Source of the DNA: a virus
DNA: 64,000 nt
Strand: one strand, 5' to 3'
Virus record (IMG/VR): IMGVR_UViG_3300032242_001752
Location: 1 to 64,000 of that record
How positions within the stretch are numbered: position 1 is the stretch's first letter; every line of letters begins with the position of its first letter. Made by a program: the position numbers and the translations under genes. The notes under the pieces were generated by a model. That model searched no databases. It had not been told where the DNA came from and saw nothing but the letters and a program-made list of their open reading frames with translations. Shown one piece after another: positions 3,765 to 55,246 of the stretch.

Positions 3765-4044
3765 GCACGTGCACGTCATAACAGACTGTAAAGCTTGTGG
3801 AATAAAGCGGTTTGCAGAAGGAAAGCCGCGCGAGTCTCACTCAGTCATCCCAGTTGAAAAGGGAATTAGTGAAGTTCCAGCAACATATACCTTCTTAGCC
3901 GAGAGCTCACACGAATTAAATAACCACAAGCAAGATATGATACATAGAGTGTTTAGACAGACGAAAGGCAAGCCTTTCTTTAACCCTATGAACTCTAGAA
4001 TAGTAAACTTCAATCACGGCAAGGACCACAATGGAACCGAGTAA
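3754..4044 (+). CDS. hypothetical protein (CxxC)
   Basis: 96 aa, coupled to neighbours. Confidence 0.7.
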   Translation: MSDEHVHVITDCKACGIKRFAEGKPRESHSVIPVEKGISEVPATYTFLAESSHELNNHKQDMIHRVFRQTKGKPFFNPMNSRIVNFNHGKDHNGTE

Positions 4045-18706: not shown

Positions 18707-19978
18707 ATGGCAACTCTTACAGACCTCATTACTAAGGTCCGTACTGAAATTAACGACCAGGCAAAACAATTTACTAAGACTTTTACTGGCGATGGTGTTA
18801 CCACTACTTTTAATTTAGGGGTTAAACCAGTTGACTCTTCAACTCTTTTAGTTAAAGACAACACCACTACTCTTCTTAATCCAGCTGACTACACAATAGA
18901 AACTGTTTATGGAGTTATCCATACAACTACAGCTCCTGCATCTGGTCATACATTAAGCGTAAATGGAAATGTGTGGCGTTATTTTTCAGATGCTGAGATT
19001 ACAGACTTTGTTAATACCGCTCTTTTACAGCACACTAATAACCGCACAGATGCCTTTGGAAGCGCTATAACTATCTCTACCCTACCTGAGATTGAAGTTT
19101 ATCCATTGACCATCCTATCGGTCGTAGAAGCCCTATATGCCCTAGCTACGGACGCGTCCTTTGACATCAATATTAGCGCCCCAGATGGTGTTACTATCCC
19201 TCGTAGCCAGCGATTTAGTCAAATAAGTGCTTTAATCAATCAGCGTATGGAAAACTATAAGAGCATTTGTGCCGCTCTTAACATTGGTCTATGGCGCATC
19301 GAGATTGGAACTCTACGCAGAGTGAGTCGTACTACTAATAAGCTTGTTCCAGTTTATGTTCCTCAAGAAATTGATGACTCAAGTAGTCCGGACAGAGTTT
19401 ACTTGCAAAATGACTTAAATGGATATGCTCCAATTGCATCCACAGCAACCACTCTAGACTTGAAGGCTTACCAGGGTGACACGTTTACCCAGACTATTAC
19501 GCTTCCATCTACAGTTGGATTTACAACTTCTGCTAGCGTAACGGCTAACGTAGCGGCAAATACAAATATAACTATCCCTGCAAATACTAATATCACTGTA
19601 GGCATGAATGTTACCGCAAGCGGAGGAACTGTTACCACCTTCCCTGCTGGAGTAACTGTGACTAAGATAGTTAACTCTACAACTATTTGGCTAAGCGCTG
19701 CGGTAAATGTTTCAGGAACTACTTTGACATTTATTAACCAGACTCTAGCTGCTCAAGTTAGAACTTACCCAGGCTCTCCTACCCTCTGGGCAACATTTAC
19801 TATTGCTATCGTTGACCCAGTAGCTAGAACTGTTAGTTTGACTCTGCCAAGCGCAGCAACTACTTCACTACCTGTTAGAACGTTCTGGGATATCCAAGGA
19901 ACATCTACCACTAATCAGGCTGTTACTACTTACTTTAAAGGCCAAATCTTTACCACGCAGCAAGTCACGATTGTATAG
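18707..19978 (+). CDS. head-tail adaptor or neck protein with extra beta domains
   Basis: LITKVRTEI.D and YFSDAEI..F adaptor-like motifs; inserted modules. Confidence 0.65.
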   Translation: MATLTDLITKVRTEINDQAKQFTKTFTGDGVTTTFNLGVKPVDSSTLLVKDNTTTLLNPADYTIETVYGVIHTTTAPASGHTLSVNGNVWRYFSDAEITDFVNTALLQHTNNRTDAFGSAITISTLPEIEVYPLTILSVVEALYALATDASFDINISAPDGVTIPRSQRFSQISALINQRMENYKSICAALNIGLWRIEIGTLRRVSRTTNKLVPVYVPQEIDDSSSPDRVYLQNDLNGYAPIASTATTLDLKAYQGDTFTQTITLPSTVGFTTSASVTANVAANTNITIPANTNITVGMNVTASGGTVTTFPAGVTVTKIVNSTTIWLSAAVNVSGTTLTFINQTLAAQVRTYPGSPTLWATFTIAIVDPVARTVSLTLPSAATTSLPVRTFWDIQGTSTTNQAVTTYFKGQIFTTQQVTIV

Positions 19979-26533: not shown

Positions 26534-29260
26534 ATGGCGACATATAACCGCCCTGGAGTGTACATCGAAGAAGTCGCAACCACTCCACCAGTACCAGGCA
26601 CATCTACTGCCTCTGTAGCTACCTTTATGGGCGCGCTAGTTAAAGGCCCACTAGACGCTACTTTGGTAACATCATGGGTACAGTTTACTTCACTGTACGG
26701 TGATGTTACAGCTAACTCAGTTGACCCAGATGTCCCAACTGCAGTTTACCTATTTTTTGCAAATGGTGGAAGCCAGTGCTACATTCAGCGTGTAGTTGTA
26801 ACCATGGCTGCTGTACAGTCTGGTGCAACAACTACTGCTAGCAAGACACTTAACGTAGGTGCTGTATCTAGCCTACTTACTTCTGACGGTGGTGCTTCTG
26901 GTTCTATATCTGTAGGTATGTTTATTACCGGTACAGGTATCCCAGCTGGAACTACTGTTACTGCAATTAACTCTCTTGCTCTTACCCTAAGCCAGAACGC
27001 CACTGTTCCTGCTAATACTACTTTGACTATTGGTACTCCAATATCATCTTCTGCGATTATTTACGGAAGCACAACTTCTGGAACCACAGCGACACTTGCT
27101 ATTCAGACCCCTGTTACAAGCACAACTATTGGTACCCAGTCTGTAGTTGGTAGCGCAACAATTGCTACTCAGACACCTACTGGTACTACTAACATCACTA
27201 TTGCTACCGGTACTCAAGCATTTACTTCAGGTCAATCTGTAACTATTTCAGGTGTTACGCCTGCAGGATACAACGGAACTTGGGTTGTTCAGGCTGGTAC
27301 AACATCTACAAGCCTTATTGTTGCAATCGGTTCTAACCCAGGAGCTATTACAGTTGCTGGTTCAGTAGCTCCTGCACAAGCTAATATTACTACTGGAACT
27401 CAATCATTTACTGCTGGTCAGTTTGTTACTATTGCAGGTGTTACTCCAGCTGGTTACAATGGTACTTGGACTGTGCAAACTGGTACTACTGCAACTAACC
27501 TTATTATTAACACTACCTCTAACCCAGGAGCTATTACAGTTGCTGGTGCGGTAGCCCCCGCTGGTCAGACTCTTACTACGTACACTACTAGCTCAGCTCA
27601 CAATCTAAAGGTTGGTCAGACTGTAGTTATCGGAGGAACTAACCTTGCTCCAACTATTCACGCAGGTAATTTCGTAGTCACTGCTGTCCCATCTGCAACC
27701 ACTTTCTCTGTAGTAAACCCATTGGCACCTATTGCTCCTATTACAGCTGCAGGTACAGTTACAGTTCCAAACAACTCGGTAACTACTGGAGAACTTGTAC
27801 TTACCGCTAAGAATCCTGGTGTATGGAGTAACGGTCTATACTACGAAATCTCTAGCTCAACCACTAGCGGAACATACCCAGGTAAGTACTTTAACTTGGC
27901 TATCTACTCTGGTGGAACAAGCTCAGGATTTATTGTAGAACGCTTTAGCGACCTTACAATGTTGACTACAGACTCTTCATATGCGCCTACTATTATTAAC
28001 GCATCATCTTCATACATAATTGCCACAGACCCTAACTCTGCAAACCACGGTTCTGATAAGTTTACCGCCGCAAATAATCCATTATCAGTTGCTTTAACAG
28101 CTGTTTCTGGTATTAACTCTGCGACAGTAACTTCAAGCACAACTGTAATTCTTACATCAGACCCTGGTGTAAGCACTGGTATGTATGTTTATGGTAGCGG
28201 TATTACTAACGGAACTACAGTATCTACTTACGTACCATCTACTAAGACCGTTACATTAAGCGCTGCTATGTCAATTTCAGCTGGAGCGGTTATCACATTT
28301 GTAAATACTCCGCTTACAGGTGGTAGCGATGGAACGACTGTAAACAATACAGCTATTGCTGCTACTGCTTCTTTGGCAAAGTTGGACGTTCTTGCATCTC
28401 CACTATTGCTGAACGCTCCTGGTGTTACTGAAGTAACTAACGTAAACAACATGCTTAACTACGCTTATAACCGTAGTGACTGCTTTGTTATCATCGACCC
28501 TACTCAGACCACTACTGATAGCGTAAGCCAGCTAGCGCTTGCAAATAACTATACAGGTGGTTCAGGAGGTTCTGCAGCTCTTGGTTTTGGAGCAGTTTAC
28601 TATCCCAACTTAACAATCCCAAGCCTTACTTCAACAGCTCCTGGAGCAACTTCTACGGCTTATCCAGGTGGTGCAGTTGCAGCTAAGTACGTCACAACTG
28701 ATGCATCTCGCGGTGTGTTTAAGTCACCTGCTGGTCTAGAAGCTAGATTGGCTGGAGTAGTATCAGTAGCTAAGCTAACTAACACAGAACTGGACTACCT
28801 AAACAACGGTAGCAGCAGCACTACGTTTGCTAACGCAACTCCAGTTAATGCTATTCGTTACATTCCAGGCTCTGGAATTGTAGTTATGGGAGCTCGTACT
28901 CTTAGCACCTCATATAACAATAAGTATGTTTCAGTTCGTCGTAGCTTGATTCAGCTACGTAGACAACTTACTGATGCTACAGCTTTTGCTGTATTTGAGC
29001 CAAATGACCAGCGTCTATGGAACCGCATTAAGACCACATGTGAAGTTAACCTAATTGGCTTCTGGCAGTCAGGTGGTTTGCGTGGAAGTACTCCATCAGA
29101 TGCGTTCTATGTAAAGTGTGACAGCACCATTAACACTGTATCAAGCATTGCTGCTGGTGAAGTTCACGTTGAAGTCGGTGTGGCTCTACAGCGCCCTGCT
29201 GAATTCATTGTAATCCGTATTAGCCAGTACGACAGTGGTTCTGTTGTCACAGTCCTTTAG
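26534..29260 (+). CDS. contractile tail sheath protein with large insertion
   Basis: RPGVYIEE N-terminus; FFANGG; VFEPND; PAEFI C-terminus. Confidence 0.95.
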   Translation: MATYNRPGVYIEEVATTPPVPGTSTASVATFMGALVKGPLDATLVTSWVQFTSLYGDVTANSVDPDVPTAVYLFFANGGSQCYIQRVVVTMAAVQSGATTTASKTLNVGAVSSLLTSDGGASGSISVGMFITGTGIPAGTTVTAINSLALTLSQNATVPANTTLTIGTPISSSAIIYGSTTSGTTATLAIQTPVTSTTIGTQSVVGSATIATQTPTGTTNITIATGTQAFTSGQSVTISGVTPAGYNGTWVVQAGTTSTSLIVAIGSNPGAITVAGSVAPAQANITTGTQSFTAGQFVTIAGVTPAGYNGTWTVQTGTTATNLIINTTSNPGAITVAGAVAPAGQTLTTYTTSSAHNLKVGQTVVIGGTNLAPTIHAGNFVVTAVPSATTFSVVNPLAPIAPITAAGTVTVPNNSVTTGELVLTAKNPGVWSNGLYYEISSSTTSGTYPGKYFNLAIYSGGTSSGFIVERFSDLTMLTTDSSYAPTIINASSSYIIATDPNSANHGSDKFTAANNPLSVALTAVSGINSATVTSSTTVILTSDPGVSTGMYVYGSGITNGTTVSTYVPSTKTVTLSAAMSISAGAVITFVNTPLTGGSDGTTVNNTAIAATASLAKLDVLASPLLLNAPGVTEVTNVNNMLNYAYNRSDCFVIIDPTQTTTDSVSQLALANNYTGGSGGSAALGFGAVYYPNLTIPSLTSTAPGATSTAYPGGAVAAKYVTTDASRGVFKSPAGLEARLAGVVSVAKLTNTELDYLNNGSSSTTFANATPVNAIRYIPGSGIVVMGARTLSTSYNNKYVSVRRSLIQLRRQLTDATAFAVFEPNDQRLWNRIKTTCEVNLIGFWQSGGLRGSTPSDAFYVKCDSTINTVSSIAAGEVHVEVGVALQRPAEFIVIRISQYDSGSVVTVL
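27191..27547 (+). repeat. intragenic tandem duplication (186-nt period) in sheath insertion
   Basis: 30-nt identity at 27332-27361 and 27518-27547; duplicated TGTQxFTxGQxVTIxGVTPAGYNGTW. Confidence 0.85.
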
Positions 29261-54111: not shown

Positions 54112-54184
54112 GCCTCAATAGCTCAGTTGGTAGAGCGCAATACTTGTAATATTGATGTCGCGGGTTCGATTCCTGCTTGAGGCT
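54112..54184 (+). tRNA. tRNA-Thr(TGT)
   Basis: cloverleaf GCCTCAA/TTGAGGC, anticodon loop CTTGTAA, TTCGATT T-loop; TATAAT upstream. Confidence 0.93.
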
Positions 54185-54290
54185 CTTTTATGGTAAAATC
54201 TTCTTAGACACGCCAATCGGGTGTCATAAATAATACTGTGCTACGGGCAGTAAAAGTACCAAGGCACAGTTGTCGTCTAAAGGAGACAAC

Positions 54291-54845
54291 ATGAACATAT
54301 TAAGTGATGAGTTCCCAGACCCATGGGATAAGCACAGAAATCCATATGACCCATATGGTAAAGCAATTCCAAATCCGCATGACCCTGCGGATGTTTATAA
54401 AAAGTGGCAAAAACCTGCCGCCCCTAAAGTCATTACTATTAATGACTTGTTTCCCAGCTTAGACCGCTGGGCTATTGGCTATTCGTCAATCCTAGAACAA
54501 CTTAAGGAAATGTCTGCTGTAAAGGCGAGCTACCCTCCTTATGACATTATTGACCAAAACCCATTTTCCACCCTTATCAACGTCGCTGTGGCTGGTTTCA
54601 CTAAAAAGGACCTTACAATCACAGTCGAAGAAAGGACGTTGAAAATTGAAGGAACAAAAGAAGAAAAAGAATCAGAAGGAACGCTCGTTCACAACGGCAT
54701 TGCTGGACGCGATTTTAAACTCACCTTTGCCTTGGCTGAGTTTTATGAAGTAGAGTCAGCTGCTGTTAAAGACGGTATCCTAACGGTCAAGCTCATTAAA
54801 AATATTCCTGATGAAAAAAAGCCAAAGGTTATTGACATCAAGTAA
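54291..54845 (+). CDS. Hsp20 small heat-shock protein
   Basis: YPPYDI, AVAGF, GIAGRDF, DGIL.V; AAGGAG RBS. Confidence 0.92.
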   Translation: MNILSDEFPDPWDKHRNPYDPYGKAIPNPHDPADVYKKWQKPAAPKVITINDLFPSLDRWAIGYSSILEQLKEMSAVKASYPPYDIIDQNPFSTLINVAVAGFTKKDLTITVEERTLKIEGTKEEKESEGTLVHNGIAGRDFKLTFALAEFYEVESAAVKDGILTVKLIKNIPDEKKPKVIDIK

Positions 54846-54868
54846 TTTTGATGTAAACTAAAAGTCCT

Positions 54869-54897
54869 CCCGGCAAGCTTTCGACGTGTTTGCCGGG
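54869..54897 (+). terminator. hairpin after hsp20
   Basis: CCCGGCAAGC/GTTTGCCGGG; no U-tract. Confidence 0.45.
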
Positions 54898-54905
54898 GGG
54901 AGCTA

Positions 54906-54985
54906 GGGCCTGAAATGGTGTCGATTGCAGAACAAAGCCTCCAGTAGGAATCTGTAAGACCACAGTTCAATTCTGTGCAGGTCCA
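54906..54985 (+). ncRNA. minimal tmRNA-like RNA (tRNA-like domain only)
   Basis: acceptor GGGCCTG/CAGGTCC-A with G3.U70; stemless D-loop AAATGGTGTCGA; helix TTGCAGA/TCTGTAA; GAC plus T-arm CACAG-TTCAATT-CTGTG. Confidence 0.8.
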
Positions 54986-55006
54986 CGATGCACGCATGTC
55001 CAGCGG

Positions 55007-55156
55007 CATTGGGGTCACGTACCTCACCTTAGTCGCGAGGCTAGGCGTTTAAGGCTCTTTACTGCTGAGTCCACAAAACCAACCAGCAGAGCGAAAGCTT
55101 GAGACGACTCGCAAGAGTGGGAACGCCCGAAAGGGTCAGTACTAGGTTTTCCAATG
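55007..55156 (+). ncRNA. unassigned structured RNA with four GNRA tetraloops
   Basis: GCGA, GAAA, GCAA, GAAA capped hairpins; closing CATTGG/CCAATG. Confidence 0.6.
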
Positions 55157-55226
55157 ACCATTAGCTCAATGGCAGAGCAGAGAGCTGTTAACTCTAAGGT
55201 TCCTGGTTCGAGTCCAGGATGGTCAG
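55155..55226 (+). tRNA. tRNA-Asn(GTT)
   Basis: TGACCAT/ATGGTCA acceptor, anticodon loop CTGTTAA, TTCGAGT T-loop. Confidence 0.93.
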
Positions 55227-55246
55227 CTTTATGGTAAAATATAGGT

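What the first reader, a model, noticed from the sequence alone, without database searches (positions are those of the whole stretch)
54906..54985. An 80-nt tmRNA reduced to its tRNA-like domain, with no tag reading frame
Seen: the tmRNA TLD hallmarks are present: a 7-bp acceptor with G3.U70 and discriminator A (alanine identity), a stemless D-loop with GG and ending TCGA, a helix-2 stem, a GAC linker and a T-arm. Helix 2 is closed by only 19 nt where tmRNA has a few hundred nt of pseudoknots and tag ORF. There is no anticodon arm, the order is not circularly permuted, and CCA is not encoded. Known: some phages carry full tmRNAs, and tag-less forms are known from jakobid mitochondria. Inference: an alanylated SmpB-binding RNA that sequesters SmpB, frees stalled ribosomes without degradation tagging, or counters tRNA/mRNA-cleaving defences.
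Basis: partly seen in the sequence, partly recalled or inferred. Interest (0 to 1): 0.9.

Follow-up and report, generated by a model that had tools for sequence, protein, structure and literature searches.

The report
Phage tag-less mini-tmRNA gene
This uncultured 88-kb phage carries a real 80-base gene for only the alanine-accepting, tRNA-like end of the bacterial ribosome-rescue RNA (tmRNA), without the tag message. One such phage RNA (mycobacteriophage DS6A) is already published, so this is a new member of a known kind, and it probably interferes with or short-cuts the host's rescue-and-tag system.

Summary
There is a 7-bp acceptor stem with G3:U70 and A73, a stemless 12-nt D-loop analogue (AAATGGTGTCGA), a 7-bp helix 2a closed by 19 nt, GAC and a T arm. 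CCA is not encoded. ARAGORN and the Rfam tRNA and tmRNA models do not call it.

It is nevertheless a conserved RNA gene. I collected 50 distinct 77-80-nt homologues from IMG/VR phage contigs: 98.5% of cells are paired, 18 of 22 pairs show compensatory changes, and G3:U70 is kept in 48 of 50 while acceptor positions 4-7 covary.

Its two ends match tag-encoding tmRNAs in the same register, including the G.U pair in helix 2a. A covariance model built without DS6A hits mycobacteriophage DS6A end to end (80 nt, 64 bits, E 5e-16). DS6A is the published "TLD only" tmRNA; a similar RNA strongly inhibited tmRNA in E. coli (Mao 2009, read only through PMC4131195 and PMC11915505).

The phage encodes no SmpB and no CCA-adding enzyme. 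The likely mechanism is a host-processed, alanylated, SmpB-binding competitor of host tmRNA; tag-less rescue remains possible.

This scan has found the same kind before on other genomes. Not found in the papers I could search: the size of the family, selection on G3:U70, and a conserved covarying cap hairpin shared with DS6A.

The parts
54906..54985 (+). Whole mini-tmRNA gene (mature RNA from G1 to discriminator A73, 80 nt; CCA not encoded, next bases are CGAT)
   Evidence: Sequence. CM R1 matches 54906-54985 end to end, though the window copy was among the sequences R1 was built from. Fifty distinct homologues of 77-80 nt.
54906..54912 (+). Acceptor stem, 5' strand GGGCCTG (G3 at 54908)
   Evidence: Pairs with 54978-54984. 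Positions 4-7 covary in the family, and G3:U70 is kept in 48 of 50.
54913..54924 (+). Stemless D-loop analogue AAATGGTGTCGA (GG, then TCGA)
   Evidence: Same 12-nt length and NNNNGGNNTCGA form as in ARAGORN-called tmRNAs. Near-invariant in the family, also among members fetched by the 3'-only pattern.
54925..54931 (+). Helix 2a, 5' strand TTGCAGA
   Evidence: Pairs with 54951-54957. All 7 pairs show compensatory changes. Same register and G.U wobble as helix 2a of a Clostridia MAG tmRNA, UUGCAGG/CCUGUAA.
54932..54950 (+). 19-nt cap that replaces the pseudoknots and tag ORF: ACAAAG, 3-bp hairpin CCT/AGG (54938-54940 with 54946-54948) with loop CCAGT, then AA
   Evidence: The three hairpin pairs covary; the innermost shows GC 17, CG 16, UA 8, AU 5. 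The DS6A element has a similar cap, with AAAACCGCA identical to the model consensus.
54951..54957 (+). Helix 2a, 3' strand TCTGTAA
54958..54960 (+). GAC linker before the T stem
   Evidence: GAC in 47 of 50 family members. The tmRNAs fetched by their 5' end alone also have YAAGAC here.
54961..54977 (+). T arm: CACAG, TTCAATT, CTGTG
   Evidence: Four of 5 stem pairs covary. The T loop is TTCAATT or TTCGATT in all 50, partly fixed by the search patterns. The Rfam tRNA model aligns to this half (20.2 bits).
54978..54985 (+). Acceptor stem, 3' strand CAGGTCC (U70 at 54982), and discriminator A73 (54985)
   Evidence: A73 is invariant.
54866..54900 (+). GC-rich 11-bp hairpin with no U tract, 5 nt upstream of the gene; probably part of the precursor leader or the Hsp20 3' end
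   Evidence: Read from the sequence. The terminator scan does not call it. A sigma-70-like match lies at 54832-54859 (10 of 12, not above chance).
54270..54845 (+). Hsp20/alpha-crystallin gene directly upstream, same strand
   Evidence: Pfam PF00011, E 1.1e-16. An Hsp20 homologue lies about 65 nt upstream of the element in 20 family loci.
54112..54185 (+). tRNA-Thr(TGT), flanking tRNA gene
   Evidence: ARAGORN and Rfam.
55155..55227 (+). tRNA-Asn(GTT), flanking tRNA gene; in relatives it follows the element after 4-5 nt
   Evidence: ARAGORN and Rfam; family context.

Best explanation
54906-54985 is a functional phage gene for a tag-less mini-tmRNA. It consists of the tRNA-like domain (TLD) of tmRNA plus helix 2a, closed by a short conserved cap. 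It belongs to the type published for mycobacteriophage DS6A.

Inferred steps, none tested here: it is transcribed with the neighbouring phage tRNA genes. Host RNase P cuts the 5' end, the 3' end is trimmed, and the host CCA-adding enzyme completes it. Host AlaRS charges it with alanine through G3:U70 and A73, and host SmpB binds its elbow and D-loop analogue. Because it has no resume codon, tag ORF or stop codon, it cannot complete trans-translation. It therefore competes with host tmRNA for SmpB, and probably also for EF-Tu and stalled ribosomes. The result would be less ssrA tagging and degradation during infection.
For: Shown here:
- The RNA is conserved and structured. There are 50 distinct homologues, 98.5% of cells are paired, 18 of 22 pairs have compensatory changes, and 0 of 500 shuffles reach this.
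- G3:U70 is kept in 48 of 50 and A73 in 50 of 50, while acceptor positions 4-7 change freely among GC, CG, AU and UA. That is the pattern expected if AlaRS recognition is under selection.
- The two ends equal those of real tmRNAs. A 3'-only pattern fetched ARAGORN-called, tag-encoding tmRNAs that begin GGGCCTG + 12-nt NNNNGGNNTCGA + TTG. A 5'-only pattern fetched bacterial tmRNAs that end YAAGAC, T arm, CAGGTCCA, with helix 2a in the same register.
- Model R1, built without DS6A, hits DS6A 28478-28557 end to end (80 nt, 64 bits, E 5e-16), and the cap is similar.
- About half of the family loci lie within 1.5 kb of phage tRNA genes, and several lie only 1-5 nt from the next tRNA.
- The phage itself has no SmpB and no CCA-adding enzyme, so it must rely on host factors.

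From papers:
- DS6A is listed as 'TLD only', and a similar molecule strongly inhibited tmRNA in E. coli whether or not it could be charged, perhaps by titrating SmpB (PMC4131195; PMC11915505).

Weak: a contig from a lake metatranscriptome library carries a relative of the element, covering 54904-54986.
Against: - There is no direct evidence of expression, processing, charging or SmpB binding for this RNA. The RNA-library contig could be DNA carry-over, and it belongs to a relative.
- The Rfam tmRNA models (RF00023, RF02544) and ARAGORN do not recognise the element.
- If SmpB titration alone were the function, charging would be dispensable, as was reported for the E. coli test. Yet G3:U70 is strongly conserved, which points to a role that needs alanylation and possibly ribosome entry.
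- Two homologues have A3:U70 (L145 and L162).
- The host is unknown, so compatibility with its SmpB and AlaRS is assumed.
- Close relatives lack the gene, so it is dispensable.
Confidence: 0.65

Rival explanations
1. Productive tag-less rescue. The Ala-charged mini-tmRNA with host SmpB and EF-Tu enters ribosomes stalled on broken or non-stop mRNAs and accepts the nascent chain. The ribosome is then freed by drop-off, peptidyl-tRNA hydrolase or ArfB-type release, without a degradation tag being added. The phage would gain ribosome recycling, for example when host nucleases cut its mRNAs, while its truncated proteins are not marked for proteolysis.
For: Strong conservation of G3:U70 and A73 while the stem covaries suggests that charging matters, which simple SmpB titration would not require. 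CDS-less tmRNAs in mitochondria co-occur with SmpB, and the authors suggest they still help deal with incomplete mRNAs (PMC11915505). A TLD fragment is accepted by stalled ribosomes together with SmpB and EF-Tu (PMC3968760).
Against: Without a resume codon and a stop codon there is no known route to termination after transfer to Ala-TLD. The published E. coli test of a similar RNA reported inhibition of tmRNA, not rescue (PMC4131195). Nothing here tests this reading.
Confidence: 0.22
2. A tRNA mimic that acts outside trans-translation. It could be a decoy or sponge for a host defence that attacks tRNA acceptor ends or T arms, or for AlaRS, the CCA-adding enzyme, RNase P or RNase R. It could also donate alanine to a non-ribosomal transferase.
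For: The element sits among phage tRNA genes, which are often read as counter-defence. Phage factors that use tRNA and tmRNA fragments against nucleases are known (AcrIIIA1, PMC11662646).
Against: The conserved parts are those that define the tmRNA TLD, namely the D-loop analogue GG..UCGA, helix 2a and GAC, and not only the generic acceptor and T arm. No partner protein is consistently linked apart from Hsp20, and that link is seen in one group of syntenic loci only.
Confidence: 0.1
3. Not a working gene: a decayed tRNA-Ala or tmRNA remnant, an attP fragment of ssrA, or an assembly artefact that deleted the middle of a full ssrA.
For: The gene callers miss it. Close relatives lack it.
Against: Fifty distinct variants from independent assemblies all measure 77-80 nt and show compensatory changes in all four helices. 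The probable source run has one contig that crosses the stretch with 0 differences. Both halves of the TLD are present, which an att fragment would not have. No full-length tmRNA was found at this spot in related loci.
Confidence: 0.03

Closest known systems
TLD-only ('standard, no CDS') tmRNA of Mycobacterium phage DS6A (JN698994 28478-28557; tmRNA Website tmID 11587; Mao et al. 2009 RNA Biol 6:355, cited through PMC4131195 and PMC11915505)
   Same: Same length (80 nt) and same order of parts: 7-bp acceptor stem with G3:U70 and A73, stemless D-loop analogue AAUGGU(G)GUCGA, helix 2a, a cap with AAAACCG..CGG, then the T arm. CCA is not encoded. R1 matches it end to end at 64 bits.
   Different: The sequences diverge: 70% versus 49% GC, CAC instead of GAC before the T stem, one extra base in the D-loop analogue and a 4-nt instead of 5-nt cap loop. 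The DS6A host is an actinobacterium; the host here is unknown, and relatives of this phage are seen in a freshwater and a lake-water library. The window's copy lies between tRNA genes behind an Hsp20 gene; the DS6A copy lies between gp33 and a DNA polymerase III gene.
Bacterial and phage full-length tmRNA (ssrA; Rfam RF00023)
   Same: The termini correspond base for base: acceptor stem, 12-nt D-loop analogue, helix 2a with its G.U pair, the GAC linker, the T arm, and G3:U70 with A73.
   Different: Everything between the two strands of helix 2a is missing and replaced by 19 nt: the rest of helix 2, the pseudoknots, the resume codon, the tag ORF, the stop codon and helix 5. The Rfam models give no hit.
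CDS-less tmRNAs of jakobid and oomycete mitochondria (Rfam RF02544) and of Mallomonadaceae plastids (about 65 bp)
   Same: These are tmRNA derivatives without a tag reading frame (PMC11915505).
   Different: The organellar forms are usually circularly permuted, and they co-occur with an imported SmpB. RF02544 gives no hit here. This element is a phage accessory gene, not the cell's only tmRNA.
tRNA-Ala
   Same: G3:U70, A73, and the acceptor stem with T arm.
   Different: There is no D stem and no anticodon arm. The Rfam tRNA model scores 20.2 bits against a threshold of 29, and only on the T-arm half. ARAGORN makes no call.

Membership tests
tmRNA tRNA-like domain (TLD) | Acceptor stem made from the 5' and 3' ends, with the G3:U70 wobble and A73 (alanine identity; PMC3968760) | tested here: met
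   GGGCCTG pairs with CAGGTCC, followed by A. In the family, G3:U70 is kept in 48 of 50 and A73 in 50 of 50, while positions 4-7 covary.
tmRNA tRNA-like domain (TLD) | tRNA-like T stem-loop | tested here: met
   CACAG TTCAATT CTGTG. Four of 5 pairs covary, and the Rfam tRNA model aligns to this arm.
tmRNA tRNA-like domain (TLD) | Reduced D-loop without a stem (PMC3968760) | tested here: met
   The 12-nt AAATGGTGTCGA has no partner strand. It has the same length and the same GG..TCGA form as in ARAGORN-called tmRNAs.
tmRNA tRNA-like domain (TLD) | No anticodon arm; helix 2 leaves the elbow in its place | tested here: met
   A 7-bp helix in which all pairs show compensatory changes, in the same register as helix 2a of a tag-encoding tmRNA.
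Full tmRNA (ssrA) | mRNA-like domain with resume codon, tag ORF and stop codon, plus pseudoknots | tested here: not met
   Only 19 nt lie between the helix 2a strands. ARAGORN finds no tag. RF00023 gives no hit on the element.
Full tmRNA (ssrA) | Binds SmpB and is alanylated by AlaRS | not testable with these tools
   This needs biochemistry. The phage encodes no SmpB of its own.
DS6A-type TLD-only tmRNA | Non-permuted RNA of about 80 nt made of the TLD and helix 2a closed by a short cap, carried by a phage | tested here: met
   R1, built from 19 environmental sequences without DS6A, hits DS6A 28478-28557 across model positions 1-80 at 64 bits, E 5e-16. The DS6A locus is unannotated in GenBank but is listed as 'TLD only' in PMC4131195. 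I could not check that the tmRNA Website coordinates are the same; the held supplementary files of PMC11915505 do not contain the entry name.
Mitochondrial tmRNA (RF02544) | Match to the family covariance model | tested here: not met
   No match at E <= 10 in the whole phage record.
Canonical tRNA (RF00005) | Cloverleaf with D arm and anticodon arm; score above the family threshold | tested here: not met
   20.2 bits against a gathering score of 29, with the middle of the model skipped. ARAGORN makes no call at default settings, and at a relaxed threshold it calls nothing at this place either.

The most novel reading that the evidence does not exclude
The tag-less mini-tmRNAs would form one old family that has spread among phages of very different hosts, rather than arising by repeated accidental deletions. 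The basis is the shared covarying cap hairpin (YAAAR-CCN-loop-NGG), seen from a 70%-GC mycobacteriophage to contigs of 39-57% GC. On this reading their function needs alanine charging, because G3:U70 is kept in 48 of 50. They would then act on the ribosome as charged anti-tagging or tag-less rescue factors, not merely as SmpB sponges. This differs from the E. coli result, where chargeability did not matter.
Probability: 0.3. Interest if true: 0.6.

Novelty: new member of a known kind. Interest (0 to 1): 0.4.

Why it matters
Trans-translation is the main ribosome-rescue and protein-tagging system of bacteria and is an antibiotic target. In the tmRNA database described in PMC11915505 there are only 9 'standard, no CDS' entries, DS6A among them. 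Here the same design turns up in at least 50 sequence variants in uncultured phages, with the alanine identity pair under visible selection. That suggests manipulating host ribosome rescue is a common phage strategy that routine annotation misses, because ARAGORN and Rfam do not call these genes. It also offers natural minimal TLD RNAs for work on SmpB, AlaRS and EF-Tu recognition. For this window alone the finding is a correct annotation of a known kind of gene, not a new mechanism.

Tried and rejected
- Gene callers. ARAGORN at default settings, ARAGORN at a relaxed threshold, and Rfam at gathering and at E-value thresholds made no tmRNA call. RF00023 on the whole phage hit only the T arm of tRNA-Thr at 12.5 bits, and RF02544 hit nothing. 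These models are not built for a 300-nt internal deletion, so the misses do not count against homology.
- Single-sequence folding gave z = -1.8, which is uninformative.
- BLAST of the 80 nt against 50,697 GenBank phage records gave only chance-level pieces. The DS6A element found only DS6A itself at full length. Partial hits in Tunturiibacter phage Tunturi_5, Achromobacter phage JWDelta and Pseudomonas phage NoPa scored only 19.6-21.6 bits with R1 and are not counted as members.
- The scan of bacterial genomes used a 17-base pattern. It gave useful tag-encoding tmRNAs for comparison but no mini form and no host assignment. A Gemmatimonadaceae MAG tmRNA shares 21 of the first 22 bases with the element, but I do not treat that as host evidence.
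- Expression. One 170-nt contig from a lake metatranscriptome library covers 54904-54986 with 11 differences, so it comes from a relative. Contigs cannot show RNA ends, and DNA may be present in such a library, so I treat this only as a hint.
- A full-length tmRNA at the same spot in sister phages was looked for in 71 Hsp20-anchored loci and not found. Close relatives go straight from Hsp20 to tRNA-Trp or tRNA-Asn.
- Linked partner proteins. Apart from Hsp20 in one group of syntenic loci, the flanking genes are ordinary phage genes: NlpC/P60 peptidase, capsid, Dit-like tail protein and PA14-domain protein.
- The paper of Mao et al. 2009 is not held. Its results are quoted only through two later papers from the tmRNA Website group.
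- From memory only, the cap looked a little like the region upstream of the resume codon in E. coli tmRNA. I did not test this and set it aside as probably coincidental.

Full report
**What is there.** The window is the first 64 kb of an 88,562-bp IMG/VR virus record that CheckV rates 97% complete. At 54906-54985 on the + strand the sequence reads GGGCCTG | AAATGGTGTCGA | TTGCAGA | ACAAAG-CCT-CCAGT-AGG-AA | TCTGTAA | GAC | CACAG-TTCAATT-CTGTG | CAGGTCC | A, followed by CGAT. That gives:
- a 7-bp acceptor stem with G3:U70 and discriminator A73;
- 12 unpaired bases with GG that end in TCGA;
- a 7-bp helix closed by 19 nt;
- a GAC linker and a normal T arm.

There is no anticodon arm and no encoded CCA.

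**What the standard tools say.** They do not see the element. ARAGORN and Rfam at gathering thresholds call only tRNA-Thr (54112-54185) and tRNA-Asn (55155-55227). At permissive thresholds only the Rfam tRNA model touches it, at 20.2 bits on the T-arm half. The tmRNA models RF00023 and RF02544 do not. The single-sequence fold is unremarkable (z = -1.8).

**Is it more than chance?** Yes. I used an Hsp20 anchor search and three DNA pattern scans of IMG/VR, and a covariance model, R1, built from 19 sequences with a hand-drawn structure. Together they gave 60 loci carrying 50 distinct sequences of 77-80 nt.
- An independent MAFFT and RNAalifold run recovers the acceptor stem, helix 2 and T stem, and 13 of 20 predicted pairs have compensatory changes.
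- On the model-fitted alignment, 98.5% of cells are paired, against a shuffle mean of 71% and slid controls of 32-47%. Eighteen of 22 pairs have changes on both sides, and 0 of 500 shuffles reach any of the observed measures.
- The 3:70 pair is G:U in 48 sequences and A:U in 2. The four pairs below it change freely among GC, CG, AU and UA, and A73 is invariant. That is the pattern expected if recognition by alanyl-tRNA synthetase is under selection.

A caveat applies. Two of the scans fixed the D-loop analogue and the T loop, so invariance there is partly built in. The scan that fixed only the 3' part still returned mini forms that all carry [AG]AATGG[TA]GTCGA.

**Is it a tmRNA tRNA-like domain?** Two reciprocal tests say yes.
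- *3' pattern.* The 3'-only pattern (AAGAC, T arm, CAGGTCCA) also fetched RNAs that ARAGORN calls as standard or permuted tmRNAs with tag reading frames, such as ANDNSYRMVA and AEDFALAA. Their 5' ends, which were not part of the pattern, read GGGCCTG + 12 nt of the form NNNNGGNNTCGA + TTG or TTA. That is the same length and form as in the element.
- *5' pattern.* A 5'-only pattern run on bacterial genomes gave mostly chance hits. It also gave tag-encoding tmRNAs from Clostridia and Gemmatimonadaceae MAGs. Their 3' ends, which were not part of that pattern, read YAAGAC, T arm, CAGGTCCA. In one Clostridia MAG, helix 2a is UUGCAGG/CCUGUAA, against UUGCAGA/UCUGUAA here, in the same register and with the same G.U pair.

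The element is therefore a tmRNA in which everything between the two strands of helix 2a is replaced by 19 nt. It meets the features that the review PMC3968760 gives for the TLD: an acceptor stem formed from both ends, G3:U70 with A73, a T arm, a reduced D-loop without a stem, and SmpB taking the place of the anticodon arm.

**Prior art.** R1, which was built without it, hits Mycobacterium phage DS6A (JN698994, 28478-28557, between gp33 and gp34). The match is end to end: 80 nt, 64 bits, E 5e-16. The parts come in the same order and the cap is similar, with AAAACCGCA identical to the model consensus.
- Hudson, Lau and Williams list 'Mycobacterium phage DS6A (TLD only)'. [quoted passage not shown] 2009 (PMC4131195).
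- The 2025 update of the tmRNA database repeats this. It counts 9 'standard, no CDS' sequences among 97,179 and 79 bacteriophage tmRNAs, taken from RefSeq viruses (PMC11915505).
- I could not read Mao et al. itself.
- The full-text searches I ran turned up no paper describing a large phage family of this type.
- This scan has reported the same kind of element on other genomes, and those follow-ups name the same closest relative. I reached DS6A through the model search before that look-up.

**Context.**
- *Neighbouring genes.* The gene lies in a + strand run: NlpC/P60 peptidase, tRNA-Thr, Hsp20, mini-tmRNA, a 169-nt spacer, tRNA-Asn, small ORFs, Dam methylase, a pyrimidine-dimer glycosylase and a family A DNA polymerase.
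- *Leader.* A GC-rich 11-bp hairpin without a U tract ends 5 nt upstream of the gene. A sigma-70-like match at 54832-54859 is not above chance.
- *tRNA neighbours.* About half of the family loci have phage tRNA genes within 1.5 kb, and in several the gap to the next tRNA is only 1-5 nt. That fits co-transcription and tRNA-type processing.
- *Hsp20.* An Hsp20 gene lies about 65 nt upstream in 20 loci.
- *Other settings.* Other carriers have the element between structural genes, and carrier contigs range from 4 to 208 kb.
- *Dispensability.* Close relatives by Hsp20 (79-85% identity) go straight from Hsp20 to tRNA-Trp or tRNA-Asn, with neither a mini-tmRNA nor a full-length tmRNA. A contig in run X3 shows the same. 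The gene is an accessory cassette.
- *Host factors.* The phage has no SmpB and no CCA-adding enzyme. CCA is encoded in only 9 of the 50 variants.

**Artefact check.** The probable source run has a 15.3-kb contig that crosses the stretch with no differences, though it is not independent of this assembly. The 50 variants from other assemblies all have the short form. An assembly deletion is excluded.

**Mechanism.** Shown here: this is a conserved, structured RNA gene with the TLD architecture and the alanine identity elements, set among tRNA genes, in a phage that lacks SmpB. Everything below is inferred from established knowledge of tmRNA (PMC3968760) and from the published E. coli test.
- RNase P makes the 5' end, the 3' end is trimmed and CCA is added.
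- AlaRS charges the RNA, and host SmpB binds it.
- Without a resume codon, tag ORF or stop codon, the RNA cannot complete trans-translation.
- It therefore competes with host tmRNA and lowers ssrA tagging during infection.

The strong retention of G3:U70 suggests that charging, and so probably delivery by EF-Tu to stalled ribosomes, is part of the function. That keeps the tag-less rescue reading alive. I put about 0.9 on the identity as a TLD-only tmRNA. Among mechanisms I put about 0.65 on competitor or inhibitor and about 0.2 on tag-less rescue, with the remainder on other tRNA-mimic roles or no function.

**Verdict.** This is a new member of a known kind. What may be new at the family level is its breadth in uncultured phages, the selection on G3:U70 and the conserved cap shared with DS6A. 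I rate interest as moderate.

Noticed in passing
window 55051-55153: A module of about 103 nt in the spacer between the mini-tmRNA and tRNA-Asn recurs at 94-98% identity in related loci but in different places. In L012 it follows the mini-tmRNA directly (1617-1719). In L004 it lies after tRNA-Asn (3895-3975). It also occurs in L182, and in a contig of run X3 its order relative to tRNA-Asn is swapped. It is predicted to fold into several hairpins. It could be a small mobile non-coding element or another small RNA.
   Followed up: partly
window 54993-55053: A second spacer piece of about 61 nt is shared (87% identity) only with L002/L101, again directly after their mini-tmRNA. The region between the phage tRNA genes looks like a mosaic of short cassettes.
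   Followed up: no
window 54270-54845 and 20 related loci: An Hsp20 small heat-shock protein gene lies about 65 nt upstream of the mini-tmRNA, on the same strand, in 20 loci with several different acceptor-stem variants. A chaperone next to an anti-tagging RNA may be a protein-quality-control module, or it may be no more than shared ancestry.
   Followed up: partly
L145:424-502 (-) and L162:1039-1117 (+): Two family members have A3:U70 instead of G3:U70, and their cap is diverged. They should not be alanine acceptors. They are natural test cases for whether charging is needed.
   Followed up: no
L114:3839-3926 (-) and L093:76-177 (+): Longer relatives of 88 and 102 nt have the same acceptor stem and T arm but a larger insert in helix 2 and a different D-loop analogue. 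R1 scores them at 38 and 34 bits. They may be other size classes of tag-less tmRNA.
   Followed up: no
L184:1483-1527 (Achromobacter phage JWDelta, KF787094 about 19750-19794): An unannotated stretch reads AAUGGUGUCAA-GAC, T arm, CGGCUCCA with no helix 2 at all (R1 21.6 bits). It may be an even more reduced or a split TLD in a cultured phage. I did not locate a 5' acceptor strand.
   Followed up: no
window 54866-54900: An 11-bp GC-rich hairpin without a U tract lies between the Hsp20 stop codon and the mini-tmRNA, ending 5 nt before G1. It could be a processing or stability element of the precursor.
   Followed up: no
L090/L127 (phage DS6A): The published DS6A TLD-only tmRNA is not annotated in either GenBank record (JN698994, NC_023744). 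The phage also encodes an RtcB-like RNA ligase (gp76).
   Followed up: no
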